This document shows positions 7,825 to 26,391 of a stretch of DNA of 33,571 bases, piece by piece (position 1 is the stretch's first letter; every line of letters begins with the position of its first letter). Below the pieces are notes generated by a model that was not told the DNA's origin, did no database searches, and worked only from the letters and a program-made list of their open reading frames with translations. The DNA comes from Nitrospirota bacterium. Its GTDB lineage: Bacteria; Nitrospirota; Thermodesulfovibrionia; UBA6902. The DNA is taken from positions 1-33,571 of the forward strand of contig JBFLYJ010000001.1 of the NCBI GenBank assembly GCA_040756635.1, read 5' to 3'. The position numbers were made by a program, and so were the translations under genes.

Positions 7825-8875
7825 GATCGATGCTTTTTTTAAATATATGATTGAGCATAAGGCGAGTGATTTGCATTTGAGCGCAGGGGCAAAGGCCAAA
7901 ATAAGGAAGCACGGCGAACTTGAAGAAATGGACTATCCTGAACTGACGAATGAAGCTGTTCAAAACCTCCTTTTTGAAATTACAACAGAGCAGCAGAAGG
8001 ACGCCTTCCTTGCCAAAAGAGACCTGGACTTCGCATATGAAATCCCCGGTGTCGCGCGATTCAGGGCGAACTATTTTGAGCAGAAAAGAGGGACTGGGGC
8101 CGTCTTCAGGGTCATCCCGACGAACATACTGTCAGTAGAGGAACTGAACCTGCCTCCGCAGATCCTTAAACTGACACAACTCAGCAGGGGGCTTGTCCTG
8201 GTGACGGGTCCGACAGGCAGCGGAAAGTCCACGACGCTCGCGGCAATTATTGATTACGTCAACCGGAACAGGAAAGACCACATACTGACAATCGAAGACC
8301 CGGTTGAATTTGTGCACCAGAACAAAGGCTGTCTTGTAAATCATCGTGAGATCGGCAACCATACCGAATCCTTTGCGTCGGCTCTTCGGGCTGCCCTCAG
8401 GGAAGACCCGGATGTCATTTTAGTAGGTGAAATGCGAGACCTTGAAACAATTGAGCTTGCCATAACCGCTGCAGAGACAGGGCATCTTGTCTTCGGCACA
8501 CTCCACACAAGTTCCGCGGCCAAGACAGTTGACCGTATCATAGACGCTTTCCCTGCAGGCCAGCAGGCCCAGATCAGGACAATGCTTTCGGAGTCGCTGA
8601 AGGGAGTCATATGTCAACAGCTTTTAAAGAGGATCGACCAGCCGGGACGTCTGGCCGCCCTTGAAATACTCTTTTGCAAAACAGCAATCGCAAACCTTAT
8701 CCGCGAGGGCAAGACCTTCCAGATCCCTTCCATGATACAAACGGGCAAAGGCGACGGTATGCAGCTTCTTGATCAGGCGATCATGGATTTTCTTATGAAA
8801 AAGCAGATTGCCCCTGAAGAGGCCTACCTGAAGGCAAACGACAAAAGCGCCTTTGAGAGGTTTATTAAAAAATAA
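7817..8875 (+). CDS. pilT: type IV pilus retraction ATPase PilT family
   Basis: The N-terminus ASDLHL, Walker A GPTGSGKST, Asp/His boxes and the PilT motif AIANLIREGK are present. The start overlaps the upstream stop by 8 nt. Confidence 0.9.
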   Translation: MAKIDAFFKYMIEHKASDLHLSAGAKAKIRKHGELEEMDYPELTNEAVQNLLFEITTEQQKDAFLAKRDLDFAYEIPGVARFRANYFEQKRGTGAVFRVIPTNILSVEELNLPPQILKLTQLSRGLVLVTGPTGSGKSTTLAAIIDYVNRNRKDHILTIEDPVEFVHQNKGCLVNHREIGNHTESFASALRAALREDPDVILVGEMRDLETIELAITAAETGHLVFGTLHTSSAAKTVDRIIDAFPAGQQAQIRTMLSESLKGVICQQLLKRIDQPGRLAALEILFCKTAIANLIREGKTFQIPSMIQTGKGDGMQLLDQAIMDFLMKKQIAPEEAYLKANDKSAFERFIKK

Positions 8876-9085
8876 CTCCCCTCACATCCGTCCGCAACAA
8901 ATTTATTATTCAGGTCAAACGCCTCATAACAGGCGCTTAAACCGCAGTCCAGCCTATAACAAACCCTGTCGCAATACAAGTCCCCGGCTTTCGGGTTTAA
9001 CAACATAGGTGTAATGCCTAAGATATTATCTTATAGGGTCATTAAAATTAAAATATAGACAGATAAAATCACAAAATTTAAAATT

Positions 9086-9104
9086 AATAATGATAAGCAG
9101 GTAG
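9086..9104. promoter_or_regulatory. weak Fur-box-like sequence upstream of the TonB-dependent receptor
   Basis: AATAATGATAAGCAGGTAG matches 12/19 positions of GATAATGATAATCATTATC. It lies 50 bp upstream of the ATG at 9154. Confidence 0.25.
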
Positions 9105-9153
9105 ATAATAACTACCCTTTAAATTATTTATTGTTGTAAAGCGAAATAGAACA

Positions 9154-11205
9154 ATGCTTAGAACTATCCCCCTAATTCTATTTCTTATTTCCTTGTATTC
9201 ATATTCCCTTGCGCAGGATTTTGCGGAGCTCAAATCAGAAACAGCCGAGGAACTGCTCATGTTCTTTGAAGAGGAGGAGCTTATGATCGCAACAAGAAGC
9301 GCAACACCTGTCCGAAAGGCACCCGCGATCGCAACGGTCATCACTGCCCAGGAAATACGTAACATGGGAGCCAGTAATGTAATGGACGTATTAAAGATGG
9401 TCCCAGGCATGGGAATAGCAAGAAACGAGCAGGGTTTTTTCATGCTTGAGGTAAGGGGAATCAGCACGGTCAAGTCCGAAAAGATTCTGTTGATGATCGA
9501 CGGTCATTCCCTGAATAAAAACGTTGCCGAGAGCGGCTTTTCTTACTTTGGCGATAATCTCAATATCAACAATATCAAACAGATCGAAATCATAAGAGGG
9601 CCCGGCTCCGCCCTGTACGGCGCCAACGCCTTTGTCGCAGTCATCAACATCAGTACAAAGAGTGCTGAGGATATAGACGGCGTCACAGCCACGGCCGGGG
9701 GAGGGAGCTTTGATACCCAGAAATACAACCTCCTTGCCGGCAAGACATTTGAGGACGGGTTGAGGATATTCAGCAGCATTGATTACCGGAAGACAAACGG
9801 GGCAAACCTCCGTATAGAAAAGGACAGTCTCTCGACAACCCCGTACTCAACCGCACCGGGAAATGCTGATACGCAGTTTGAAGCGGCCGATGTTTTTGTT
9901 AAAGCGACCTATAAAGACTTGACCTACAGTGGACACTATCTGGGAAATGACAGGGGGGTCTATATCGGGTTTGGAGCCGCGCTCACTGATCACAATTCCC
10001 TGGAATTGTATAATTACTGGCATGAGCTGAGTTACCGCTTTTCCGCGGTTGAGGGATTCTCTTCATTTGTAAAGATATATTTCAATCGGTTTGAACAGGA
10101 TGCAAGTATTGAACTGATGCCTGACGGCTATGCCGGATCATATCCCGATGGAATGATAGGAGGCCCGAAGGTCAAAGACAGAACAGTCGGAGGAGAGATA
10201 CAGTTTGATTATGACATTTCTGAGACAAATCATCTGCTTGCAGGTGTTGTGTATGAAGACATAAAACAATATGATGTTAAATCTATTTCGAATTTTAATC
10301 CTAATACCGGCGCATACCTTGGTTCGGTCCAGGACAGAGCATGGACCAGTTGGAACAGGGACACCAACCGGTATATATTTGCGGCCTATATACAGGATGA
10401 ATGGGGAATCCTGAATAATTTAAACCTGACCGCCGGAATACGGCACGACCGCTATAACGATTTCGGCGGTACGACCAACCCCAGGGCAGGATTAGTATGG
10501 AGTTTTCTTGAGAATGCAGATCTGAAGCTGCTTTACGGACAGGCATTCAGGGCGCCCAGTTTTACGGAGCTATATAATGATAATAACCCCTCTCTTATGG
10601 GGAACCAAGACCTTACACCTGAAAAGATAAAGACATATGAGGCAGGCCTTGGATACAGGTTTTCTGATCACTTCAGGATCGATCTGAATTATTTCTACAA
10701 TGACATCGACGATCTTATCATACGTGACAGCTCAACTTCTCCTGCAACAAATGCCAATCTTGGGGGAGCAGAGATCGACGGTGTTGAAGTCGTGCTGTCA
10801 GGGAACTATTCTCATGACAATTACTGGCAAATCACGTATTTCTGGCAGGACCCGGAAGACTCTGAAACCGGGGAGAGTATAGCATACGTGCCGCTTAACA
10901 GGGCAACTGCAGGAATTAATTATAGTTTTAATAAATATCTTAATGTGCACACCGATATACTGTGGACAGGTGAACGGTCAAGGCCGGACGGCGACACGAG
11001 GGACCCCGTGGCTTCTTACACGACAGTTGATCTTGCGTTGACCTTGAAGAACTTTTATAAGACCCTTGAGATACAGGGGACGGTACATAATTTGCTTGAC
11101 GAAGATTACGAAGATCCCGATGTATCGGGGGCGTCGAAGTATGTCCCCGGCGATTACCCGAGGGAGGGTATTTCCGGGCTGTTAAGTGTCAGGTATGAAT
11201 TTTGA
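9154..11205 (+). CDS. TonB-dependent outer-membrane receptor (paralog 1)
   Basis: It has a signal peptide ending SLAQD, a plug domain (IATRSATPVRKAPAIATVITAQEIRNMG, IEIIRGPGSALYGANAF), a beta-barrel and a terminal aromatic residue (VRYEF). Confidence 0.9.
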   Translation: MLRTIPLILFLISLYSYSLAQDFAELKSETAEELLMFFEEEELMIATRSATPVRKAPAIATVITAQEIRNMGASNVMDVLKMVPGMGIARNEQGFFMLEVRGISTVKSEKILLMIDGHSLNKNVAESGFSYFGDNLNINNIKQIEIIRGPGSALYGANAFVAVINISTKSAEDIDGVTATAGGGSFDTQKYNLLAGKTFEDGLRIFSSIDYRKTNGANLRIEKDSLSTTPYSTAPGNADTQFEAADVFVKATYKDLTYSGHYLGNDRGVYIGFGAALTDHNSLELYNYWHELSYRFSAVEGFSSFVKIYFNRFEQDASIELMPDGYAGSYPDGMIGGPKVKDRTVGGEIQFDYDISETNHLLAGVVYEDIKQYDVKSISNFNPNTGAYLGSVQDRAWTSWNRDTNRYIFAAYIQDEWGILNNLNLTAGIRHDRYNDFGGTTNPRAGLVWSFLENADLKLLYGQAFRAPSFTELYNDNNPSLMGNQDLTPEKIKTYEAGLGYRFSDHFRIDLNYFYNDIDDLIIRDSSTSPATNANLGGAEIDGVEVVLSGNYSHDNYWQITYFWQDPEDSETGESIAYVPLNRATAGINYSFNKYLNVHTDILWTGERSRPDGDTRDPVASYTTVDLALTLKNFYKTLEIQGTVHNLLDEDYEDPDVSGASKYVPGDYPREGISGLLSVRYEF

Positions 11206-14352: not shown

Positions 14353-14574
14353 TTAAATTTCATTTATTATTTTTATGATTTCGCTTTCATCCGGGAAAAC
14401 ACCGGTCTTTTGTTTTGAGTAAATCAATTTTCCATCCACAGCGATATCGAAGATCCCACTGCTGCCTTCGATTAGTTTCGCTTCAATGTCACATGTTTCC
14501 TTTATCTTCGCTGCCAGGCCGGCAGCTTTCTGCAGAAAGTTTCAGGGGACACAATAAGTAATAGTTATTTTCAT
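14353..14574 (-). CDS. SelW/SelT/Rdx-family selenoprotein (73 aa) with in-frame TGA = selenocysteine at codon 11
   Basis: My own translation is MKITITYCVP-U-NFLQKAAGLAAKIKETCDIEAKLIEGSSGIFDIAVDGKLIYSKQKTGVFPDESEIIKIINEI. The CxxU redox motif and the ...G.F.I..DG.LI.SK...G.FP pattern are typical of the Rdx fold. AGGAG sits 8 nt upstream of the ATG. The TGA is at 14544-14542. The gene is absent from the ORF track because of the TGA. Confidence 0.8.
14510..14526 (-). promoter_or_regulatory. candidate bacterial SECIS hairpin
   Basis: On the mRNA, the hairpin GCUGCC-GGCCU-GGCAGC starts 15 nt after the UGA, and its apical loop lies about 21-25 nt after the UGA. I remember this distance as being in the range used by bacterial SECIS models. 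Confidence 0.45.
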
Positions 14575-14688: not shown

Positions 14689-16629
14689 CTAGTTTGCCTC
14701 AAGCTCGTCTTCTAGATGAATCGCTGTCGACGGAAACAGATCCAACCCTCTAATCTGTTGTCGTGCAGCAGAGACATCCGTTGTAAAGAGAACCACGACC
14801 AGATCTTTCAGAGAGCGTGTACAACAAACGTAAAAAAGCCGTCTAGTTCTCTCTATGGACGTTTCCTTACCCTCACGTCTACTTGCCTCCTCCCTATCTG
14901 AGAGCGGCCTGATACCCAAGTACTTGTCATAGGAGAATTGCACGTGGGTTCCCTCATCATCGTCTAGAACTACAAGCACCCGCTCAAACTCAGCACCCTT
15001 AATTCCTTGTTGAGTTGAGAACGGAGAATCTTCTTTGACATACCTGTAGTAGCCCCAGAACTGAGATGCAGGGCAAGCGAGAAAAGCATCCATGGCATGA
15101 ATTTCCTTCGTAATTTCGTCGTCATTATCTTCTGCAGCATCCTCATCTTCGTTTCCCTGAGTTTCGACTGGAATTGGTAAATCCAAATACGAGAGCATCC
15201 GCGGGTCAAGGTCAATTAACCTCCATTCATGAATGCTACGAAGAACATCGCCATTGGTTGCAGCTAACCCTGGCTCCATCATCAGTTGCAGCCTCTCAGT
15301 AAATCGACGCAGGTCGTCAAGTCTTTCAGATACGTTGATCCCACTTAGGCTCTTTTGCTGAAGTAGGGGTGATTGGCTTCTCAGAACTTGTATTGCCTCA
15401 AACTCGCGTCCCTGTTTGACAGCATTTACAAGTGGTAAAATAAAGTTATAAAAAGGACGCACTGGCCACGCAGTCGCATCCAAGAATCCGCTTTTGAACT
15501 TCTCGGGGGCCTTATCGTTCAGTGCAGCATATAGATCGCCAAATCCAAGCCTTTTGGCGGCCATTCTGTGGACAATGACCAGAACTTTCACGGTTTTATC
15601 GTCTTCACCTGATTGCCATGCTGGATCAATATACTTTCGCGCTGCCCAAGCACATAACTGTGCTAGCCGATGATCACGCCTCTCGTCAATAGGTAGTATG
15701 AAGATATCCGCATTGCCCTCTACGTTTACCAGTGCGTCTTCTGCACCTATCATCCGGCCTCGTGTCTGAACTAGCCCGTCACCGTCTCGACGAATTGCAT
15801 TGGCAACCCTGAGTACCGCTGTGGGACAGCGGAAATTCTCTGACTTCGTTATGTTCGTCCACCCAGCAGCAGCAGAAACTGAACCGATTCCTGTCAGGTA
15901 TATGCGTTGCATCGGATCTCCAAAAAAACCGAGACAAAAATGCCCCTGCTGGCTCTCTTCCACTGCTTTTAAAGCTGCTACGACATTCGCCATCGCGTCT
16001 TGGCTCTCATCGACAAAAAGGAAAGGATATTGTTGAGCGAGTATGCTCTGTAGCAATGGGCGCTCGATTATGAACTGTGGAACCATTTTTATAATGTCAT
16101 CATGGCCCAGCACACCGTTTACATAGTCACTACCTGTCCCATAGGTAAACGAAAGGACTCGCCCAATTCGTGCCTTCTGTCGTTCGTAGCGGTCTATATC
16201 GTTCTGGTTCTTGTCACGCGTACGTTGTTGAACACGAGGCCCAAAATTGGCCGCTGTCTCTCGAAGTTCAACGAGTCTTTCATCAATTCGCTTTACTACC
16301 CACTCGTGGATGTCTGACTGAAAAGACCTGATTAGAGACCATAGAAAACTGTGAATGGTCGAAACATGAACGAGGGGATTATTGCCTACGTCCGTCCAAA
16401 TCTCATCGGCAGCGATCTCCATGTAAGTTATGCATGCAATTTGCTGTTTGCGAAGCTTCAGCCGTCCACTATGTACTTTGAGTGCTTCGGTGAGTCCTTT
16501 AATCAAAGAAGTGGTTTTCCCAGATCCGGCTCCCGCAACCATCAAGAAGCTGCGTGTTGGTGAGGCATTCAAGCAGCGATAAAGCTCTAGATCCGCCTCA
16601 GTGTCTTTTTGCTGCGCGCGGCTAGTCAT
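14689..16629 (-). CDS. UvrD/Rep-like superfamily 1 helicase (GajB-like partner of the OLD nuclease), 646 aa
   Basis: SF1 motifs are present: Walker A AGAGSGKTT, motif II FVDESQD, ENFRCP, GIKGAEFERVLVV and YVCCTRS. The ATG overlaps the stop of the upstream OLD gene (ATGA at 16626-16629). Confidence 0.85.
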   Translation of the reverse strand: MTSRAQQKDTEADLELYRCLNASPTRSFLMVAGAGSGKTTSLIKGLTEALKVHSGRLKLRKQQIACITYMEIAADEIWTDVGNNPLVHVSTIHSFLWSLIRSFQSDIHEWVVKRIDERLVELRETAANFGPRVQQRTRDKNQNDIDRYERQKARIGRVLSFTYGTGSDYVNGVLGHDDIIKMVPQFIIERPLLQSILAQQYPFLFVDESQDAMANVVAALKAVEESQQGHFCLGFFGDPMQRIYLTGIGSVSAAAGWTNITKSENFRCPTAVLRVANAIRRDGDGLVQTRGRMIGAEDALVNVEGNADIFILPIDERRDHRLAQLCAWAARKYIDPAWQSGEDDKTVKVLVIVHRMAAKRLGFGDLYAALNDKAPEKFKSGFLDATAWPVRPFYNFILPLVNAVKQGREFEAIQVLRSQSPLLQQKSLSGINVSERLDDLRRFTERLQLMMEPGLAATNGDVLRSIHEWRLIDLDPRMLSYLDLPIPVETQGNEDEDAAEDNDDEITKEIHAMDAFLACPASQFWGYYRYVKEDSPFSTQQGIKGAEFERVLVVLDDDEGTHVQFSYDKYLGIRPLSDREEASRREGKETSIERTRRLFYVCCTRSLKDLVVVLFTTDVSAARQQIRGLDLFPSTAIHLEDELEAN

Positions 16630-18905
16630 TCCCCAGCATCCTCTATAGTCCCCACTTCGCCTACTTCGGCAGGAGCCTCAGTTCCGGCTACCTCCGGCTG
16701 AATTGTCGGTTGATCAAGACTTATATTGCTAGCGAGCCAGCGCAAACCTTCCTTGATATAGGATGGCACGTTCCAGTTCGCAGGACTTTCAGTTAGAACT
16801 CCCAAGGCGAACTTCGTTTTATCGAATGACTTCCCCTTGATTCGCTTGTGAAGGCCAGCCGCAAGATCGCTGGGTGATTCAAGAGTACCGCGAAGCTTGA
16901 GGCCGAGATGTCTCCGTTCAATAGCTTGGCACCACGTCGAGTTCTCAAGACCAAAGGCCTCCTCCAGTGTTCTTCCGCAAAGATTGGCATTCAAACCATT
17001 CCATGTTACATTCGTTGGGACTTGATAAGCGACGCGTATCTTAAAGCCATTTCCGCCTTCCGCCTCATATAACTTGGCCTCGTCCGTTACCGCATGCAGA
17101 TCTGCAACCGTTTGCTTTTTGGGTATCCACTGGATCAAAGTCTGGTTTGAAGTTAGCGCGCCAGACTCGGATGGCAAACACGCTGTGCCGCGTTTCTTTA
17201 CTGGCGGCTCACCCGTTTCGGCATTTGGTACTTCAAACTCGGTATCATCATCTTCATTTTCCTCGCCAGTCGCAACGGGTTTCACGCTGTCCAAATCGGT
17301 AATTACAAGTGCAACAAGGCCGAGGAATTCAAGCAGAGTTTTGAAGCGATGGGCAAAAGCACCGCCTACTTCTAAGATAGAAACGCAGGCCGACCTCAGG
17401 GATGCCACTTCTCTTTCCTCCTCAATCATAACAGGGAGCAGAAGTCGTTCGACATTACCTTCAACCAAAATAGCTGCGTCGGCAAAGAAGAGGTCGCAGT
17501 GCGTCAGTTTCAGGTATCTTTGCAGGAAATCCCGCTCGTTAGGGTTCTTATTATAGAATGCAGACAGATTCAATACCTCGGTCGTCTGCTCACTGCCGAT
17601 GCTCTGACGCCTGAAATATCTAATTGGTTGAAAGCCGCGCTCATAAAGGATATGAGGTGAGTGTGTAGTTACTATCGTCTGGCTTTGGAAAACGCCTCTG
17701 TCCGCTTCGCTACCCTTCATAAGATCCAAGACATTACGAATGAAAACCTGCTGAAGCTGAGCATGAAGGTGCACCTCGGGTTCCTCGATGAATACTAGGT
17801 GCAGCGGAGCACGCTGCTCCTTGTCTGCAACCCAACCGGCATGGTAGTCGAGTATATCGACTACTATATAGATGAGGTTCTTGAACCCGAGGCCGCTATG
17901 AGTGTCGGGCAGCCTTAAGGCCGCATCACCGTCGCCAAGAACATAGTGAACTCGAGTATCTTGGGTGCTCATGAGCGTCGCTGGATTGAGCGCCGACTTG
18001 ATCTCTAGTCGAGGATTATGGAGACCGGGGTACCCAAGTTTTGACAGGCTACCGAGAGTGTCTTTGAAAACATCGGCCAAGTGTTCATTAAGTCCCAGTT
18101 CGGAGTCGAACAATGCCCTAAGTGCGTTGTAGTCCTCTTGTCGTTGCTCTAGGTTCCGCTTGTAAAATCGACTCAACCGTTTGGAGAGATCTTCGGCTCG
18201 CCCACCGCTCGTCTCAGATAGGTGCCGCTGGGCTTTTACGTTATCAATTTTGACAAGAGATTTCAGAATTGCCGCGCCGCTAGGCTCTTTACCAAGCTGT
18301 AGAGGCATATACTCGGCCTTCTGCTGGTAAAAGTCATCGAATTGACCACGATCAAGGACATAGTACTTGAACTCAAACTCGCTGCGTAATATCTCGTTTT
18401 TTAGAAGATAGTCGCTCAGGCTCTTCGGCCATGGCACATACCTCTCGTTTGCCCGCGGCTGCAAAGCTGCGGCTTTGCTACGTGCCTCTGCTCGTGCTGC
18501 CCGGAATCTCCCAAGAAGCTCTACAGAGTCGCGCGCGGCAAACTCTATCCGCATGCCAACCTGTGTCCCCCGCCATGCCGTACTCGGTAATAGAGGTATC
18601 ACGAGGTATAAATCATTCGCCGCAACCTCGAACCAAAGATCAGCGCTTATCGAAGGCAATTCGGGCTGTTCCACGCCATCCTCTGGCAGTTCGCCAATCG
18701 CGTTAAACTTTGCCCAACATGCCAAGCTAAAATCGTAGAGAGAAAAATTATCCTTCGCGCCCGATACAAATGTGTTAAGAGCCTGAGTTGCTGATGTTTT
18801 ACCACTATTGTTCGACCCGACAAAGATCGATATATCCGAAGCAAGCTCTATATAGACATCACGTAGGCGCCTATAATTCTTTATCCTGTATGAGTGCAGA
18901 TACAT
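16626..18905 (-). CDS. OLD-family ATP-dependent endonuclease (ABC-type ATPase + TOPRIM), GajA-like, 759 aa
   Basis: Motifs are Walker A GSNNSGKT (res 30-37), SGLG (337-340), LVFIEEPEVHLH (370-381), TTHSPH (413-418), the TOPRIM Glu in ILVEGNVE (E482), DxD in VITDLDS (537-539) and TLEEAF (646-651). GGAGG sits 9 nt upstream of the ATG. Confidence 0.85.
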   Translation of the reverse strand: MYLHSYRIKNYRRLRDVYIELASDISIFVGSNNSGKTSATQALNTFVSGAKDNFSLYDFSLACWAKFNAIGELPEDGVEQPELPSISADLWFEVAANDLYLVIPLLPSTAWRGTQVGMRIEFAARDSVELLGRFRAARAEARSKAAALQPRANERYVPWPKSLSDYLLKNEILRSEFEFKYYVLDRGQFDDFYQQKAEYMPLQLGKEPSGAAILKSLVKIDNVKAQRHLSETSGGRAEDLSKRLSRFYKRNLEQRQEDYNALRALFDSELGLNEHLADVFKDTLGSLSKLGYPGLHNPRLEIKSALNPATLMSTQDTRVHYVLGDGDAALRLPDTHSGLGFKNLIYIVVDILDYHAGWVADKEQRAPLHLVFIEEPEVHLHAQLQQVFIRNVLDLMKGSEADRGVFQSQTIVTTHSPHILYERGFQPIRYFRRQSIGSEQTTEVLNLSAFYNKNPNERDFLQRYLKLTHCDLFFADAAILVEGNVERLLLPVMIEEEREVASLRSACVSILEVGGAFAHRFKTLLEFLGLVALVITDLDSVKPVATGEENEDDDTEFEVPNAETGEPPVKKRGTACLPSESGALTSNQTLIQWIPKKQTVADLHAVTDEAKLYEAEGGNGFKIRVAYQVPTNVTWNGLNANLCGRTLEEAFGLENSTWCQAIERRHLGLKLRGTLESPSDLAAGLHKRIKGKSFDKTKFALGVLTESPANWNVPSYIKEGLRWLASNISLDQPTIQPEVAGTEAPAEVGEVGTIEDAGE

Positions 18906-18986
18906 ACCACCTTACCTCCACTGGTTTGTGGTCATCGCATTAAATTGACCATCCACGGTTCTAAGTTGCGCGATTGATCGGACTAG

Positions 18987-19027
18987 CCAACGTCATGCGT
19001 TTATAGACCAACGTCAAAGTCTGTGAA
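18987..19027 (-). promoter_or_regulatory. candidate promoter and operator of the OLD/helicase operon
   Basis: On the minus strand, TTCACA-N16-TATAAA (plus 19022-19027 and 19000-19005) is a candidate promoter. The direct repeat TGACGTTGG x2 (plus CCAACGTCA at 18987-18995 and 19008-19016, 21-bp period) overlaps the spacer and the predicted start site. Confidence 0.3.
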
Positions 19028-19126
19028 TCGAACCCTTGAGAACATTAGTATTTTGAAGACTAATTTGTACATCAAAAAACAAACACGCTCAATAAAGGCA
19101 CTGCTGATTCAATTTCACAGCACTTA

Positions 19127-19136
19127 CTGTTGGGTG
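19127..19136. repeat. 10-nt arm (CTGTTGGGTG) abutting the RT stop codon; inverted partner at 20767-20776
   Basis: It is the perfect reverse complement of CACCCAACAG at 20767-20776. The two arms bracket the RT ORF, one 0 nt after the stop and the other 19 nt before the ATG. Confidence 0.5.
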
Positions 19137-20747
19137 TTATTTAGATAATAATGCACAAATAGATTTATCTATGATATCACCCCTTGATGAAACCATTTTT
19201 ATCCAATGCTTCATTTCATCTTCTGATAATATTTCGGCGGAGTATAAAACTGATCTTCTATCCAATGGCCCTAAAACATCGAGTCCATCCTTATGATCCT
19301 TAACCCATACTCTGTCATTTCTTCTTTTTGCAATCAGAGCCTGCTCTCGTATTCGTATTATTTTTTTATAGTTTTGTGGAAAATCTATGATATTAAAATG
19401 ATTGTTTTGGAGAAGATAAGATACCCACACATTTATGAATGGAATGTCCATAATATGACTATCCAATATTTTTTCAAAATATCTTTTATATCTTTTAACT
19501 TGCGGTTCACTAAGTGTTTTGTTTAAGTAAATAACCACCTCACGAATTAATGGAATTAGTGCTTCAAAATTTCTCAACACAATTGGTGCAAGACTTCTGA
19601 TTCGATATCTCGACGCATTTCTAAATATGTGTCTCAATAAAGCAACATCTAACTTCTTTGAGTCTAATTCTTTATTTAACATGTTCTTATATGCGTCAGT
19701 AAGGATTTCAAAGTGTTCATTTTCAGCAACTTCATTATAAATATTTTCGTAAGCTTCTTCGTATGTATCTTCTGAATCTTCAAAATAATCGTATGTTGAT
19801 CCGGTAAATTCAAGCTCAAGCTCTTCAAATTTTTCATTAGCTAATTCTTCAGTTTTCTTCATAACTTCAATTTCTTCCTCTTGTTCTTCATCCTTATATT
19901 TATATTTCATATACCATTGAACTGACTTGATTCGAGATTTTTCACCTGAAAAAACTAATCTGTGAGAACTATATAGATATTTTGTTAGCTCGTGGAATAT
20001 AAAGGATGCATCTTCTTCTTTATTAAAAAAAATAATTATATCGTCTACCCATCTCACAAAATCACGTGTATAACTAAGTATTTTCTTATCTATATCAGCC
20101 ATGATAGCTTCAGCTAATACAATGCTTGCTGCGGGTCCAACTGGAATCCCCCTTGATGTTTTAGTATTTAAATTCATCAAAAAGTCTTCAAGGATTTTGG
20201 CTAAGTCGTTATAAAGGGGACCTCCTGCTTCCGATATAATATTACGAATTCGATGTGTATATATCTGGTTATAAAAATCAGTGATATCACAAAAAAGTAC
20301 AAATCCCCTCTTATATTGTTTAGCTAATTTTTTTATTTGTGTTTTATAGTTTTTCCAGCCATCATCGCCTCTCTGAAAGAAAGAGCCATTTAAATCAGGC
20401 TTGACTCTATAGGAGCATGCAATTTTCTCTGTCTCAGGAATGCGAAATTCTTCTATTATGTTATGTAACTGATATACAAGGGCTGTATAGATTAATGAAT
20501 CAATAGGATCCAATTGATGAACAATTCTATATGTTCCATTTACCTTTGGTGAAAGGCTGATTAATGGGGATTTCGGAATATAATTTAGTAAATCTAGTGA
20601 AAGAATATGTTTTTTAACAAGAGGCCAATTATGTGAGATAGCATCATATTCAAAAGATTTAGGATAAAAATCACTGTCGTAATATCTTTTAAGATGTTTT
20701 AATGCCCACTCTAATGCGTTTTCTTCTACTGATATCATAAAAGCCAT
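19137..20747 (-). CDS. stand-alone reverse transcriptase, Abi/UG (defence-associated, DRT-like) type with helical C-terminal domain, 536 aa
   Basis: RT palm motifs are present: FCDITDFYNQI (motif A, D154), SRGIPVGPAASIVLAEAIM (motif B), RWVDDIIIFF (motif C, D235-D236) and RLVFSGEKSRI. An acidic Tyr-rich linker (res ~285-346) and a ~190-aa helical tail follow. The gene is about 30% GC by eye and has no SD. Confidence 0.8.
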   Translation of the reverse strand: MAFMISVEENALEWALKHLKRYYDSDFYPKSFEYDAISHNWPLVKKHILSLDLLNYIPKSPLISLSPKVNGTYRIVHQLDPIDSLIYTALVYQLHNIIEEFRIPETEKIACSYRVKPDLNGSFFQRGDDGWKNYKTQIKKLAKQYKRGFVLFCDITDFYNQIYTHRIRNIISEAGGPLYNDLAKILEDFLMNLNTKTSRGIPVGPAASIVLAEAIMADIDKKILSYTRDFVRWVDDIIIFFNKEEDASFIFHELTKYLYSSHRLVFSGEKSRIKSVQWYMKYKYKDEEQEEEIEVMKKTEELANEKFEELELEFTGSTYDYFEDSEDTYEEAYENIYNEVAENEHFEILTDAYKNMLNKELDSKKLDVALLRHIFRNASRYRIRSLAPIVLRNFEALIPLIREVVIYLNKTLSEPQVKRYKRYFEKILDSHIMDIPFINVWVSYLLQNNHFNIIDFPQNYKKIIRIREQALIAKRRNDRVWVKDHKDGLDVLGPLDRRSVLYSAEILSEDEMKHWIKMVSSRGDIIDKSICALLSK

Positions 20748-20766
20748 AGCATTATTTATTTGTTTT

Positions 20767-20776
20767 CACCCAACAG
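20767..20776. repeat. 10-nt arm (CACCCAACAG) in the RT 5' leader; partner at 19127-19136
   Basis: See 19127-19136. In the minus-strand transcript, the 5' leader CUGUUGGGUG could pair with CACCCAACAG directly after the stop codon. Confidence 0.5.
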
Positions 20777-24462: not shown

Positions 24463-26391
24463 GTGAAGTGTCTCAGGTGTCTGGAGGAAAATAAGAGCTC
24501 GTCACTTAATTGTGAAAAGTGCGGGGCCCCTCTTCCGCGGAGAAGATGGAGCGACCGTTATCGTAATAAAATTGTGTATGCAGTCGTTGCCGCGGCACTG
24601 ATTCTGGTCAGCGTAACCGTTTATTTATTCCATGACATGATATCCCCTGACGTTGATGTTCCCGGCACAGTCTTGTCCCAGGATAAAGAAAATTACACGA
24701 AGGAGAGACAGAGAAAGCGCGAAGAGCTTAAGGCAAAACTGAGGAGCATCATACAGGAACAATCAGCCGCCGTCTCTGAAAAGAAAAAACCTGTCGTCCG
24801 TGAAAAGGCAGCGGCTCCGGAAGTCCCGACGGAGCAAAAGGAGATCACAACGGGCTGGATAATAATCGCAGACGCATGGGACAGGCAGGTCAATAAGTTC
24901 AGGGCGGGATTGGCCGGGAGCGGCTGGCTGGCCCTGCCGGCCCGCGCATGTCTTGGCGGAAGCAGATGGTATTTTTATCCCGATTCCGGAGGTGCGCTTG
25001 AAATAACCGGTGGACAGTGGATAGCGGGGGACAAAGTCGGCTTGTGGCATATTGCCGAAGGCGCGGGAAGCTTTGATGGACCGGGGCTTGCTCCCTGGAA
25101 AGAGAGTGAGCCCGTGTCGTGGGTGAGCCTCGAATCCGAGACGGAATTCAATTCAGTCATGCCGGCCCGCGAGCGGGAAAAAGGTTTTTTTGTTCTCTCC
25201 CTGATTCCGGAAGAAATCAATGAATCAGGATTGTTTATTCAGGACGGTAATATTGTGGGTTGGTCATTTGGCCGGTGGCTTCCCAAAGGTTACATGTGGC
25301 CGGGCGGGAAAGGGGCGGAACCGGCATATAAGACCTGGGTAAAATATTTCTATAACATGACCTTTGCCAATGGACGCGAAGAGAAGTTTGCTAAGGCCCT
25401 TGCCATGAAAGACGGACATTCCGGTCTGGAGCAGCTTGCTGTTTTTATCGAGGGGTTTCGATTAAAACCGAAACTGTCGCCGGAGGACACCCCGGATTAT
25501 TTAATGCCCGAGGAAATTATTAAACATATGCATGTAAGTATCACCAATTTGGTAAACATCGGGGAAGTCGAGAGGATAGCGGACATGTTTAACGGTCAGC
25601 TGCTAAAGCGAATAGGAGACATCGGTCTGCTGATGGACATTGTTCCTGCCATCGCCCAGGCTCGCGGATTTGAAGCTGCCGTGGCTGAGATACAGGATTC
25701 CGGGGAATATATAACCCGGAAACTGGGGCACAATGTCCCGGCTCTCAATGCGCTTCATACTAAATATTATCAGGACTGGCTGCAGTCACTTGTGACTGCC
25801 GGCGCAGTTGATGAGGGGCTCAGGACTTATGGCTTGGCGACAACTTATTATCCTGATGACCCTTATATTCAGCTGCTTGGGGCTGAACTCGCTTTGCTCA
25901 ACGGAGACTGGAGAGAGGCTGAACGCATATTGAACAGCAGGACTTATCCGCCGGCGTTTAAGGACCGTTATGAACTGCTTGCCCTACGCGTTTCCGAGAT
26001 AAAAGGTCAGGAAGAAAAGATTATAATTCGGTTCCCGCGCGGTTCCCGCATGATACCGGTCAAGGTAGCGGTCAATGAGAGCATCGTTCAGGATTTCCTG
26101 GTTGATACCGGGGCCTCGATGGTGACCATTCCCTCATCCACGGCTGACGCACTGGGGCTGGAGGTTGTTCACGGGCAGAGAAATATTTCGACTGCCGGGG
26201 GGATTGTAAAGGCGTCTGAGGTGATCATCAATACTCTGGAGATTGACGGGTGGGTGGAGTATGATGTCGGCGCTTATGTCCTGGACCTGCCGGGCCGGCC
26301 CGGAGTGGGATTGCTCGGACTTAATTATCTGGGCAGGTTCCGGATGGACCTGAAGACAGATGAAGGGACGCTTATACTTACTCCCCGATAA
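24463..26391 (+). CDS. membrane-anchored protein: N-terminal zinc ribbon, one TM helix, large central region, C-terminal retropepsin-like (clan AA) aspartic protease domain
   Basis: It has a GTG start with AAGGA 6 nt upstream. The zinc ribbon is CLRC...CEKC and the TM helix is IVYAVVAAALILVSVTVYLF. The C-terminus has FLVDTGASMVTIPSSTADALGL and LLGLNYLGRF, typical of bacterial retropepsin-like domains. Confidence 0.7.
   Translation: MKCLRCLEENKSSSLNCEKCGAPLPRRRWSDRYRNKIVYAVVAAALILVSVTVYLFHDMISPDVDVPGTVLSQDKENYTKERQRKREELKAKLRSIIQEQSAAVSEKKKPVVREKAAAPEVPTEQKEITTGWIIIADAWDRQVNKFRAGLAGSGWLALPARACLGGSRWYFYPDSGGALEITGGQWIAGDKVGLWHIAEGAGSFDGPGLAPWKESEPVSWVSLESETEFNSVMPAREREKGFFVLSLIPEEINESGLFIQDGNIVGWSFGRWLPKGYMWPGGKGAEPAYKTWVKYFYNMTFANGREEKFAKALAMKDGHSGLEQLAVFIEGFRLKPKLSPEDTPDYLMPEEIIKHMHVSITNLVNIGEVERIADMFNGQLLKRIGDIGLLMDIVPAIAQARGFEAAVAEIQDSGEYITRKLGHNVPALNALHTKYYQDWLQSLVTAGAVDEGLRTYGLATTYYPDDPYIQLLGAELALLNGDWREAERILNSRTYPPAFKDRYELLALRVSEIKGQEEKIIIRFPRGSRMIPVKVAVNESIVQDFLVDTGASMVTIPSSTADALGLEVVHGQRNISTAGGIVKASEVIINTLEIDGWVEYDVGAYVLDLPGRPGVGLLGLNYLGRFRMDLKTDEGTLILTPR

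What the first reader, a model, noticed from the sequence alone, without database searches (positions are those of the whole stretch)
14689..18905. Enlarged, translationally coupled OLD-family ATPase/TOPRIM nuclease + UvrD-like helicase: a divergent Gabija-like (class 2 OLD) defence pair at the window centre
Seen in sequence: the 759-aa ORF has Walker A GSNNSGKT (res 30-37), a signature-like SGLG, Walker B-like LVFIEEPEVHLH (Glu where Asp is usual), the H-loop TTHSPH, the TOPRIM Glu in ILVEGNVE, DxD in VITDLDS and TLEEAF. Its stop overlaps the ATG of a 646-aa SF1 helicase by ATGA. The helicase has AGAGSGKTT, FVDESQD, ENFRCP, GIKGAEFERV and YVCCTRS. Established knowledge: class 2 OLD nucleases are defined by an adjacent UvrD/PcrA-like helicase, and Gabija GajA/GajB is the characterised anti-phage example with the same gene order. 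Inference: both proteins appear about 150-180 aa longer than Bacillus GajA/GajB as I recall them (roughly 580 and 490 aa). The extra mass includes a long region between Walker A and the Q-loop. It also includes a ~35-aa acidic low-complexity insert directly after the TOPRIM DxD (res 541-575, GEENEDDDTEFEVPNAETGEPP). There is a C-terminal extension of more than 60 aa ending in an acidic tail (EVAGTEAPAEVGEVGTIEDAGE). The helicase carries its own acidic insert (NEDEDAAEDNDDE). The pair may therefore be a distinct, uncharacterised sub-family rather than canonical Gabija. It also has its own candidate promoter with a tandem TGACGTTGG operator-like repeat.
Basis: partly seen in the sequence, partly recalled or inferred. 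Interest (0 to 1): 0.85.

Follow-up and report, generated by a model that had tools for sequence, protein, structure and literature searches.

The report
Long-form Gabija anti-phage gene pair
This is a two-gene Gabija-type anti-phage system (an OLD-family ATPase/TOPRIM nuclease coupled to a UvrD-like helicase) from a large "long-form" branch that defence-gene catalogues already recognise, though no member I could size has been tested or solved, so it is a new member of a known kind rather than a new system.

Summary
Two minus-strand ORFs (gajA-like 16626-18905, 759 aa; gajB-like 14689-16629, 646 aa) overlap by ATGA, and every quoted motif is at the stated residue.

PADLOC GajA and GajB models of matching length (752 and 632 positions) fit both proteins end to end (887 and 788 bits). 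The pair would therefore be called Gabija, which is the same thing as class 2 OLD.

The large size is not special to this locus. More than 100 protein clusters at 68-80% identity, 396 species genomes and 93 plasmids carry full-length relatives. In 79 of 80 loci fetched, the helicase gene follows directly.

The branch is far from the solved Bacillus cereus GajAB (13-15% identity in structural alignment). It has about 86 extra residues before Walker B. The "acidic insert" models as a confident beta-hairpin inside the TOPRIM domain. The helicase is UvrD-sized, so BcGajB is the reduced form.

All seven class 2 OLD catalytic residues have invariant counterparts. Neighbours in related loci include restriction-modification, retron and SIR2-STAND genes; here it is a DRT8 reverse transcriptase.

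The TGACGTTGG repeat is real but only weakly non-random, and it is absent from all 80 related loci.

Verdict: a long-form Gabija, with modest interest.

The parts
16626..18905 (-). gajA-like gene: 759-aa OLD-family ABC ATPase + TOPRIM nuclease (class 2 OLD, long form)
   Evidence: ORF. Pfam AAA_15 residues 1-419 and OLD-like_TOPRIM 473-539. PADLOC GajA PDLC00095 matches residues 1-734 to model positions 1-739 of 752, 887 bits. AF2 pLDDT 83.3, best PDB fold match BcGajA.
14689..16629 (-). gajB-like gene: 646-aa UvrD/PcrA/Rep-like SF1A helicase
   Evidence: ORF. Pfam UvrD-helicase and AAA_19. PADLOC GajB PDLC00143 matches residues 1-640 to model positions 1-630 of 632, 788 bits. AF2 pLDDT 80.8; best fold matches are UvrD, PcrA and Rep at E about 1e-17, BcGajB at 1.4e-10.
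16626..16629 (-). ATGA stop/start overlap (translational coupling of gajA and gajB)
   Evidence: Read directly from the sequence. A -4 or -8 overlap is typical in the 80 related loci.
18795..18818 (-). GajA Walker A, GSNNSGKT (residues 30-37, K36)
   Evidence: G30, N32, N33 and K36 are invariant in 107 diverse relatives.
17448..17462 (-). TOPRIM glutamates E482 and E486 (counterparts of Bp OLD E400 and E404)
   Evidence: Invariant in A3 and A4. Aligned to the Bp and Xcc C-terminal regions. Roles taken from PMC6755086.
17289..17297 (-). TOPRIM DxD motif, D537-L-D539 (counterparts of Bp OLD D455 and D457)
   Evidence: Invariant. The spacing from E482 to D537 is 55 residues, the same as Bp E400 to D455.
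17181..17288 (-). Post-DxD insert (residues 540-575): predicted beta-hairpin with an acidic loop
   Evidence: AF2 strands at 540-543, 554-559 and 569-575, pLDDT 85-89. The EFEVP and CLPS motifs are conserved in close relatives. The DxD-to-N587 segment is 48 aa here against 22-23 aa in distant long-form members.
16962..16970 (-). T646-L-E648, proposed metal-B ligands at the start of the helical domain (counterparts of Bp T506 and E508)
   Evidence: T646 and E648 are invariant in A4. They lie in predicted helix 647-654. The assignment rests on motif and spacing compared with PMC6755086 and is an inference.
16818..16820 (-). K696, proposed catalytic lysine (counterpart of Bp K562)
   Evidence: Invariant in A3 and A4. 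A weak alignment links FDKTKFA...PSYI to Xcc and Bp GKGRFA...PAYI.
16629..16712 (-). Disordered Ala/Glu/Pro-rich C-terminal tail of GajA (residues 732-759)
   Evidence: pLDDT below 50. The sequence varies among close relatives.
16510..16536 (-). GajB helicase motif I, AGAGSGKTT (residues 32-40)
   Evidence: Invariant in 78 relatives.
16000..16011 (-). GajB motif II, DESQ (residues 207-210)
   Evidence: Invariant.
15115..15171 (-). GajB acidic loop (about residues 487-505) within the helical region I assign to the 2B domain by motif spacing compared with UvrD
   Evidence: pLDDT below 50 for residues 487-503. The sequence is variable and acidic in relatives.
18906..19136 (-). Intergenic region upstream of gajA, holding two TGACGTTGG copies (19008-19016 and 18987-18995) and a GGAGG ribosome-binding site
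   Evidence: No consensus promoter or terminator was found. The repeat is weakly non-random and not conserved.
19137..20747 (-). Neighbouring, separately acquired DRT8 reverse transcriptase (536 aa, GC 31%). It marks a small defence islet and is not part of Gabija.
   Evidence: PADLOC Drt8 E 1.1e-129, Pfam RVT_1. GC 0.312 against 0.48-0.50 for the Gabija genes. No close homologue occurs beside the pair in the 80 related loci.

Best explanation
The pair is a Gabija (class 2 OLD) anti-phage system of the long-form branch.

**Shown here.**
- GajA-like is an ABC-type ATPase fused to a TOPRIM nuclease.
- It is followed, with a 4-base overlap, by a UvrD-like SF1A helicase that has intact motifs I to VI.

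**Inferred from the characterised Gabija and class 2 OLD enzymes.**
- The two proteins are made in matched amounts and assemble into a hetero-oligomer. GajA forms the core through its ATPase and insertion region, and GajB sits on the outside.
- GajA cuts DNA by two-metal catalysis. Metal A would be held by E482, D537 and D539. Metal B would be held by E486, T646 and E648. K696 would be the catalytic lysine.
- Nucleotide binding at the ATPase site (K36, Q226, G338-G340, E374/E375, H415) gates the nuclease. The nuclease would act on phage DNA when nucleotide pools fall, or on DNA ends not protected by RecBCD.
- GajB engages the resulting DNA ends and hydrolyses (d)NTPs.

**Specific to the long form.**
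- About 86 extra residues lie in the ATPase N-terminal half.
- A beta-rich elaboration with an acidic loop lies between the DxD motif and the helical domain.
- The tail is disordered and acidic.
- The helicase is full UvrD size, with long helical segments where UvrD has its 1B and 2B domains (assigned by motif spacing) and its own acidic loop.

The pair sits in the chromosome of a Nitrospirota MAG beside a foreign, low-GC DRT8 gene, forming a two-system defence islet.
For: - PADLOC GajA and GajB models match end to end. Pfam finds AAA_15, OLD-like_TOPRIM and UvrD-helicase.
- The gajB-like gene follows gajA directly in 79 of 80 related loci, with a -4 or -8 overlap typical.
- AF2 models have pLDDT 83.3 and 80.8. 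The best PDB fold matches are BcGajA (E 2.5e-19) for A and UvrD, PcrA and Rep (about 1e-17) for B, with BcGajB at 1.4e-10.
- The seven catalytic residues defined for class 2 OLD (PMC6755086) have invariant counterparts with matching spacing.
- Distribution is sporadic and cross-phylum at 68-80% identity, and includes conjugative plasmids.
- Neighbours in related loci include type I and type III restriction enzymes, retron type XI RT-protease, a NERD+UvrD candidate, SIR2-STAND and WYL genes. DRT8 is the neighbour here.
- By definition class 2 OLD is synonymous with GajA (PMC10568477). Mechanistic background comes from PMC12796447 and PMC12407980.
Against: - No member of this long branch that I could size has been tested against phage.
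- Sequence similarity to BcGajA is weak (phmmer E 1.6e-8 over residues 357-539) and no better than to the class 1 Thermus OLD (profile E 6e-20 against 4e-25).
- The helicase has no sequence-level hit to any PDB chain and resembles housekeeping UvrD more than BcGajB in fold.
- TM-scores to BcGajA are only 0.35-0.63.
- The oligomeric state, nucleotide gating and DNA-end specificity are carried over from distant relatives and were not tested.
- The defence-island evidence is qualitative and has no background control.
Confidence: 0.85

Rival explanations
1. The long-form OLD and helicase pairs are an independent, convergent association of a class-1-like OLD nuclease with a full-size UvrD-type helicase. 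They would be labelled Gabija by gene context and broad HMM sets while working differently from B. cereus GajAB, for example with a hydrolysis-competent ATPase, a true translocating helicase, or a different stoichiometry or trigger.
For: - The long-form profile scores the class 1 Thermus OLD higher than BcGajA (4e-25 against 6e-20).
- The fold search separates BcGajA from TsOLD only marginally (2.5e-19 against 7.7e-17).
- The helicase is closer to UvrD, PcrA and Rep than to BcGajB.
- A published phylogeny finds class 2 nested within class 1 diversity (PMC12796447).
- All ATPase catalytic motifs are invariant, whereas BcGajA is reported to lack ATP hydrolysis.
Against: - The class 2 active-site signature is conserved with near-identical spacing to Bp OLD: T-x-E at the start of a helical domain, the lysine, and the PxYI C-terminal motif.
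- Dedicated PADLOC GajA and GajB models fit end to end.
- Gene order and coupling are the same as in canonical Gabija.
- Bp and Xcc class 2 OLD proteins also hydrolyse ATP, so an active ATPase does not separate it from class 2.
Confidence: 0.1
2. The DRT8 reverse transcriptase and the OLD and helicase genes form one three-gene system. The RT product would regulate the OLD nuclease, by analogy with retron-associated (class 3) OLD nucleases.
For: - All three genes are co-directional, and no terminator was predicted in the 231-nt gap.
- In three related loci (L024, L038, L039) a different RT, retron type XI RT-protease, lies 109 nt upstream of gajA on the same strand.
Against: - DRT8 has GC 31% against 48-50% for the pair, so it was acquired separately.
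- No close DRT8 homologue is adjacent in any of the 80 related loci.
- The DRT8 ORF is bracketed by its own 10-bp perfect inverted repeat.
- The RT matches the PADLOC Drt8 model end to end.
- The OLD and helicase pair is conserved on its own in 79 of 80 loci.
Confidence: 0.03
3. The pair is a housekeeping DNA-repair nuclease and helicase module with no defence role.
For: - The helicase fold is closest to UvrD, PcrA and Rep.
- The flanking genes in the window are ordinary chromosomal genes.
Against: - Distribution is patchy: two conserved motifs found it in 396 of 185,579 species genomes, and only 5 of 5426 E. coli genomes gave even a partial DNA match.
- Identity of 68-80% across phyla implies horizontal transfer.
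- It occurs on conjugative plasmids.
- Neighbours are restriction-modification, retron, SIR2-STAND and DRT genes.
Confidence: 0.02

Closest known systems
Bacillus cereus VD045 Gabija GajA-GajB (PDB 8SM3, 8U7I, 8J4T, 8TJY)
   Same: - Same gene order and coupling.
- OLD ABC-ATPase and TOPRIM nuclease plus an SF1 helicase.
- It is the best PDB fold match for the nuclease.
- Walker A, Walker B (EE), H-loop, TOPRIM Glu and DxD all align.
   Different: - Only 13-15% identity in structural alignment, with TM-scores of 0.35-0.63.
- GajA here has 181 more residues: about 86 before Walker B, 19 between Walker B and DxD, and 76 after DxD.
- A predicted beta-hairpin insert follows DxD.
- GajB here has about 150 more residues and is closer to UvrD than to BcGajB.
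- There is no sequence-level PDB hit for GajB.
Burkholderia pseudomallei and Xanthomonas campestris class 2 OLD nucleases (PDB 6NK8, 6NJV; PMC6755086)
   Same: - The TOPRIM core aligns at E 8.5e-7.
- The catalytic set E400/E404/D455/D457/T506/E508/K562 maps to E482/E486/D537/D539/T646/E648/K696.
- The Glu-to-DxD spacing is identical at 55 residues.
- The KxxFA...PxYI C-terminal motif is shared.
   Different: - Bp and Xcc are 594 and 595 aa.
- This protein has about 54 extra residues between the DxD motif and the catalytic lysine, and about 31 extra at the C-terminus.
Thermus scotoductus class 1 OLD (PDB 6P74)
   Same: It is the best sequence-profile match in the PDB (4e-25) and has the same ATPase and TOPRIM architecture.
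   Different: Class 1 OLD genes stand alone. This gene is always followed by a helicase gene and carries the class 2 helical-domain signature.
UvrD / PcrA / Rep SF1A helicases (PDB 2IS1, 1QHG, 1UAA)
   Same: They are the best fold matches for the helicase, aligned over the full length. By my own comparison, the motif I to VI spacing is close to that of E. coli UvrD.
   Different: - Identity is 14-18%.
- Scores are far below NCBIfam cut-offs for uvrD, rep and pcrA: 19-30 bits against 911-1144.
- No Pfam UvrD_C hit was found.
- The protein has an acidic disordered loop at 487-503.
- It is encoded in a coupled pair with an OLD nuclease.
Retron-Eco8 (class 3) OLD nuclease
   Same: It is an OLD ATPase and TOPRIM protein of similar length (750 aa), and a reverse transcriptase gene lies next door.
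   Different: - The match is weak: NCBIfam retron_eff_Eco8 scores 58.5 bits against a cut-off of 250.
- The RT here is DRT8, not a retron RT, and has a foreign base composition.
- A helicase partner is present.

Membership tests
Gabija / class 2 OLD system | [quoted passage not shown] | tested here: met
   Pfam AAA_15 (1.6e-41) and OLD-like_TOPRIM (1.3e-15). The AF2 model matches the GajA and OLD folds.
Gabija / class 2 OLD system | A UvrD/PcrA/Rep-like SF1 helicase gene immediately adjacent in the same operon (the feature that defines class 2; PMC10568477) | tested here: met
   The genes overlap by ATGA. The helicase follows directly in 79 of 80 related loci. The helicase fold is confirmed.
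Gabija / class 2 OLD system | Recognised by curated Gabija profile HMMs for both proteins | tested here: met
   PADLOC GajA PDLC00095 scores 887 bits over model positions 1-739 of 752. GajB PDLC00143 scores 788 bits over positions 1-630 of 632. DefenseFinder models were not available.
Gabija / class 2 OLD system | The class 2 catalytic machinery: TOPRIM Glu, ExxxE, DxD, T-x-E and a Lys from a helical domain inserted in the C-terminal region | tested here: met
   E482, E486, D537, D539, T646, E648 and K696 are invariant in alignments of 92-107 sequences. Spacing and weak alignments to Bp and Xcc agree. Helices are predicted at 647-727. The T-x-E and Lys equivalences are inferred, not superposed.
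Gabija / class 2 OLD system | Both genes required for protection against phage | not testable with these tools
   This needs cloning and phage challenge.
Gabija / class 2 OLD system | GajA4:GajB4 supramolecular complex | not testable with these tools
   No multimer prediction was available. Only monomer models were made.
Canonical short-form Gabija (B. cereus VD045-like) | GajA of about 575-600 aa and GajB of about 490-500 aa, alignable over the full length with BcGajA and BcGajB | tested here: not met
   The proteins are 759 and 646 aa. Sequence alignment to BcGajA covers only residues 1-71 and 357-550. GajB has no PDB hit by phmmer. Short PADLOC GajA models match only the core, for example PDLC00071, where residues 336-563 match model positions 248-461 of 588.
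Class 1 OLD (stand-alone, P2 Old / TsOLD type) | A single gene with no conserved helicase partner | tested here: not met
   The helicase partner is conserved in 79 of 80 loci.
Class 3 OLD (retron-associated) | The OLD gene lies in a retron cassette with a retron RT and its msr-msd non-coding RNA | tested here: not met
   The neighbouring RT is DRT8, not a retron RT. Rfam found no RNA family in the window. NCBIfam retron_eff_Eco8 scores 58.5 bits against a cut-off of 250. The RT is not conserved next to relatives.
Housekeeping UvrD / Rep / PcrA | Reaches the equivalog cut-offs of the NCBIfam uvrD, rep and pcrA models | tested here: not met
   Scores are 19-30 bits against cut-offs of 911-1144.

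The most novel reading that the evidence does not exclude
The long-form branch, to which this pair belongs, could be a mechanistically distinct Gabija subtype.
- It has an enlarged ATPase N-terminal half and a hydrolysis-competent ATPase site.
- A beta-hairpin insert with an acidic loop sits beside the TOPRIM active site.
- The helicase is full UvrD size and carries its own acidic loop.

These features could give a different assembly or different control from B. cereus GajAB. For example, the acidic loops might act as DNA-mimicking autoinhibitory elements, and the helicase might truly translocate on DNA. No member whose size I could determine has been tested or solved.
Probability: 0.25. Interest if true: 0.5.

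Novelty: new member of a known kind. Interest (0 to 1): 0.3.

Why it matters
[quoted passage not shown] Every structure and most of the biochemistry come from one short-form system (B. cereus VD045) and a few short relatives.

This window shows that a large, widely transferred long-form branch shares only the catalytic core with that model. I found 570 clusters at 50% identity with E below 1e-30, and members in Proteobacteria, Planctomycetota, Verrucomicrobiota, Nitrospirota, Bacillota and on plasmids. Conclusions drawn from BcGajAB about stoichiometry, ATP gating or Gad1 sensitivity may not carry over to it.

For this locus alone the value is in annotation. It is a two-system defence islet (DRT8 plus Gabija) in a Nitrospirota MAG. 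It is not a new kind of system.

Tried and rejected
1. A genome-contig scan with the single protein found nothing, because the back-translated patterns were too specific. Repeating it with alignment A1 worked.
2. phmmer of GajB against the PDB gave no hit, so fold comparison was needed.
3. I looked for conservation of the TGACGTTGG repeat in 80 related upstream regions and found none. With the shuffle test and the lack of a consensus promoter, I dropped the operator idea as unsupported.
4. I tried to find out whether the tested P. aeruginosa PA14 Gabija is long-form. Neither the paper nor its supplements give sizes or residue numbers, so this is undetermined. The E. coli ECOR49 system (H-loop H317) and LsGajA (TOPRIM 300-433) are short-form.
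5. The PADLOC scan of 126 neighbouring ORFs returns counts per family only. It gives qualitative support and not an enrichment statistic. I followed it with 10 individual neighbours.
6. The DNA of the closest relative's contig (P0002) could not be fetched, so its upstream region could not be compared.
7. Rfam found no RNA family in the window.
8. I considered and rejected a functional DRT8-OLD-helicase triad, on base composition and lack of co-occurrence.
9. Proteins from the representatives search could not be used for structure prediction.

Full report
**1. The observation**

Both ORFs are on the minus strand. The OLD-like gene lies at 16626-18905 (759 aa) and the helicase gene at 14689-16629 (646 aa). 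The two genes overlap by ATGA at 16626-16629. A GGAGG lies about 10 nt upstream of the gajA ATG.

Pfam finds AAA_15 (residues 1-419) and OLD-like_TOPRIM (473-539) in the first protein. It finds UvrD-helicase and AAA_19 in the second.

**2. Family assignment**

PADLOC-DB holds many GajA and GajB profiles. The best ones have the same length as these proteins and match end to end.
- GajA PDLC00095: residues 1-734 on model positions 1-739 of 752, 887 bits.
- GajB PDLC00143: residues 1-640 on model positions 1-630 of 632, 788 bits.

Shorter GajA models of about 590-630 positions match only the stretch from Walker B to TOPRIM, with an offset of about 88 residues. The 'enlarged' form is therefore already catalogued as Gabija. 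[quoted passage not shown]

**3. How common the long form is**

- The window is a whole 33,571-bp contig of a Nitrospirota MAG.
- More than 100 protein clusters share 68-80% identity with each protein. Nearly all are 745-770 aa (A) and 641-657 aa (B). They come from Burkholderia, Paraburkholderia, Bradyrhizobium, Leptospirillum, Planctomycetota, Syntrophales and others.
- A scan of one genome per species, using two conserved motifs, found 396 relatives.
- In the 80 loci fetched, the helicase gene follows directly in 79. The one exception is a contig end. A -4 or -8 overlap is typical.
- An exhaustive search of 50%-identity representatives found 570 clusters with E up to 1e-30. The best 150 are mostly 650-830 aa.
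- A profile search reached members with 30-36% identity in Bacillota, Bacteroidia and Synergistota, again 730-790 aa.
- 412 plasmid records have a match. 93 of them are full length, and 225 of the 412 records are typed as conjugative.
- In E. coli the form is rare. A DNA search seeded with the Klebsiella plasmid homologue matched 5 of 5426 genomes, each over only 13-16% of the query. One of them carries a 771-aa and 625-aa pair next to a type I restriction-modification system and a WYL gene.

Size, coupling and gene order are therefore family norms and not features of this locus.

**4. Where the extra mass lies**

Compared with BcGajA, about 86 extra residues lie before Walker B, about 19 between Walker B and DxD, and about 76 after DxD. 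Sequence profiles align to BcGajA only over positions 1-71 and 364-550. The long-form profile scores the class 1 Thermus OLD higher than BcGajA (4e-25 against 6e-20).

Across the whole long-form family the Walker A to Q-loop segment is about 185-197 aa. This is a family-wide trait. The DxD-to-N587 segment is 48 aa here and in close relatives, against 22-23 aa in distant long-form members. The acidic part is therefore specific to this sub-branch.

The AF2 model has pLDDT 83.3 and pTM 0.81.
- It predicts that the 'acidic low-complexity insert' is ordered. Strands lie at 540-543, 554-559 and 569-575, with pLDDT 85-89.
- Further beta strands follow, and then a helical domain at 647-727.
- Only residues 229-256, 311-315 and the tail at 732-759 are disordered.
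- The tail is Ala/Glu/Pro-rich and varies among close relatives.

**5. Catalytic residues**

The class 2 OLD active site was defined in B. pseudomallei OLD. It comprises E400, D455 and D457 (metal A), E404, T506 and E508 (metal B), and K562 (PMC6755086).

The counterparts here are E482, D537, D539, E486, T646, E648 and K696. All are invariant in alignments of 92-107 diverse relatives. The Glu-to-DxD spacing is 55 residues in both proteins. The TOPRIM core aligns to the Bp and Xcc structures (8.5e-7). The KxxFA...PxYI C-terminal motif aligns weakly.

The ATPase motifs are also invariant: K36, Q226, G338-G340, E374/E375 and H415.

**6. Fold comparisons**

For GajA-like, the top PDB matches are BcGajA chains (E 2.5e-19 to 1e-13, 13-15% identity, TM 0.35-0.63). 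TsOLD follows at 7.7e-17, then retron-Eco8 OLD and PtuA.

For GajB-like (AF2 pLDDT 80.8), the top matches are full-length UvrD, PcrA and Rep (2e-17 to 1e-15). BcGajB ranks only 32nd at 1.4e-10. The helicase is thus of ordinary SF1A size, and BcGajB is the reduced form. Its acidic stretch at 487-503 is a low-confidence loop in the helical region that I assign to the 2B domain by motif spacing.

**7. Context**

The flanks are ordinary chromosomal genes: ArsA, TonB-dependent receptors, DUF480, CBS and PsiE. I found no tRNA gene, and none of the flanking ORFs I scanned matched an integrase or transposase family.

Directly upstream and co-directional is a 536-aa DRT8 reverse transcriptase (PADLOC 1.1e-129). 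Its GC is 31%, against 48-50% for the pair and the flanks. It has no close homologue beside the pair in related loci.

In related loci the nearest neighbours include:
- type I and type III restriction enzymes, retron type XI RT-protease and a NERD+UvrD candidate;
- a SIR2-STAND gene;
- a type I restriction-modification system and a WYL gene.

This is qualitative defence-island evidence. I could not compute a background-controlled enrichment.

**8. The promoter and repeat claim**

TGACGTTGG occurs only twice in the window, 21 nt apart, 82-110 nt upstream of the gajA ATG. A repeat of this kind arises in 2.4% of dinucleotide shuffles and in 4.8% of same-sized windows of the contig. It is absent from all 80 related upstream regions. 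No consensus sigma-70 promoter or terminator was found in the gap. A regulatory role is possible but unsupported. Read-through from DRT8 cannot be excluded.

**9. What has been characterised**

The systems I could size are all short-form:
- B. cereus VD045 (578 and 494 aa);
- Bp and Xcc OLD (594 and 595 aa);
- E. coli ECOR49 (H-loop H317);
- LsGajA (TOPRIM 300-433).

The size of the P. aeruginosa PA14 system could not be determined from the paper.

**10. Verdict**

This is a bona fide Gabija (class 2 OLD) pair of the long-form branch. It is a new member of a known kind.

The residual interest is at the level of the clade. A large branch of one of the commonest defence systems shares only the catalytic core with the single structural model. 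It may therefore differ in assembly and control.

Noticed in passing
window 14353-14574 (minus strand): An unannotated small gene for a SelW-like (Rdx family) selenoprotein lies just downstream of gajB. Its sequence is MKITITYCVP-UGA-NFLQ..., with an in-frame UGA at 14542-14544 at the CxxU position. With Cys substituted, Pfam Rdx scores E 1.5e-18. A GC-rich hairpin (GCUGCC...GGCAGC) starts about 15 nt after the UGA, where a bacterial SECIS element would sit, but its folding energy is no better than shuffled sequence.
   Followed up: partly
window 19127-19154 and 20749-20776: The low-GC DRT8 gene (19137-20747) is bracketed exactly by a 10-bp perfect inverted repeat, CTGTTGGGTG ... CACCCAACAG, which extends to 28 nt at 71% complementarity. 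This could mark the ends of an inserted cassette, or pairing between the 5' and 3' ends of the transcript.
   Followed up: no
window 19137-20747 (minus strand): A DRT8 (UG/Abi-type) reverse transcriptase of 536 aa has GC 31% in a contig of 46% GC, so it was clearly acquired horizontally. No Rfam RNA family was found nearby.
   Followed up: partly
L024, L038 and L039, about 8315-9889 (109 nt upstream of gajA, same strand): In Pelagibacterium, Mesorhizobium and Haematobacter, a 525-aa retron type XI RT-protease (PADLOC 3.5e-186) lies directly upstream of the long-form gajA. This RT-OLD-helicase order recurs with a different RT from the one in the window.
   Followed up: partly
L081 7436-7849 (Klebsiella pneumoniae IncF plasmid CP052288.1): A TetR-family regulator gene lies immediately upstream of the long-form gajA homologue. 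In a sister plasmid, the match to gajA is split into three pieces around an IS3-family transposase gene. This hints that some long-form Gabija loci have a dedicated repressor.
   Followed up: no
L005, L009, L012, L032, L053 (upstream of gajA): Several loci have a co-directional gene of about 1030-1060 aa ending 9-170 nt before gajA. One is a type I restriction enzyme (L005) and one is a UvrD-like protein (L012). Two have no PADLOC match (L032, L053).
   Followed up: partly
window 24463-26391 (plus strand): A 642-aa ORF has a C-terminal retropepsin-like aspartyl protease domain (Asp_protease_2, 1.2e-17) and no other recognised domain.
   Followed up: no
phage record OR790969.1, 2111-4126 (hit H32): The filamentous Pseudomonas phage PfAC02b carries an OLD endonuclease and DNA helicase pair. 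The endonuclease is distantly related to the window's GajA (25% identity over 99% of the query).
   Followed up: no
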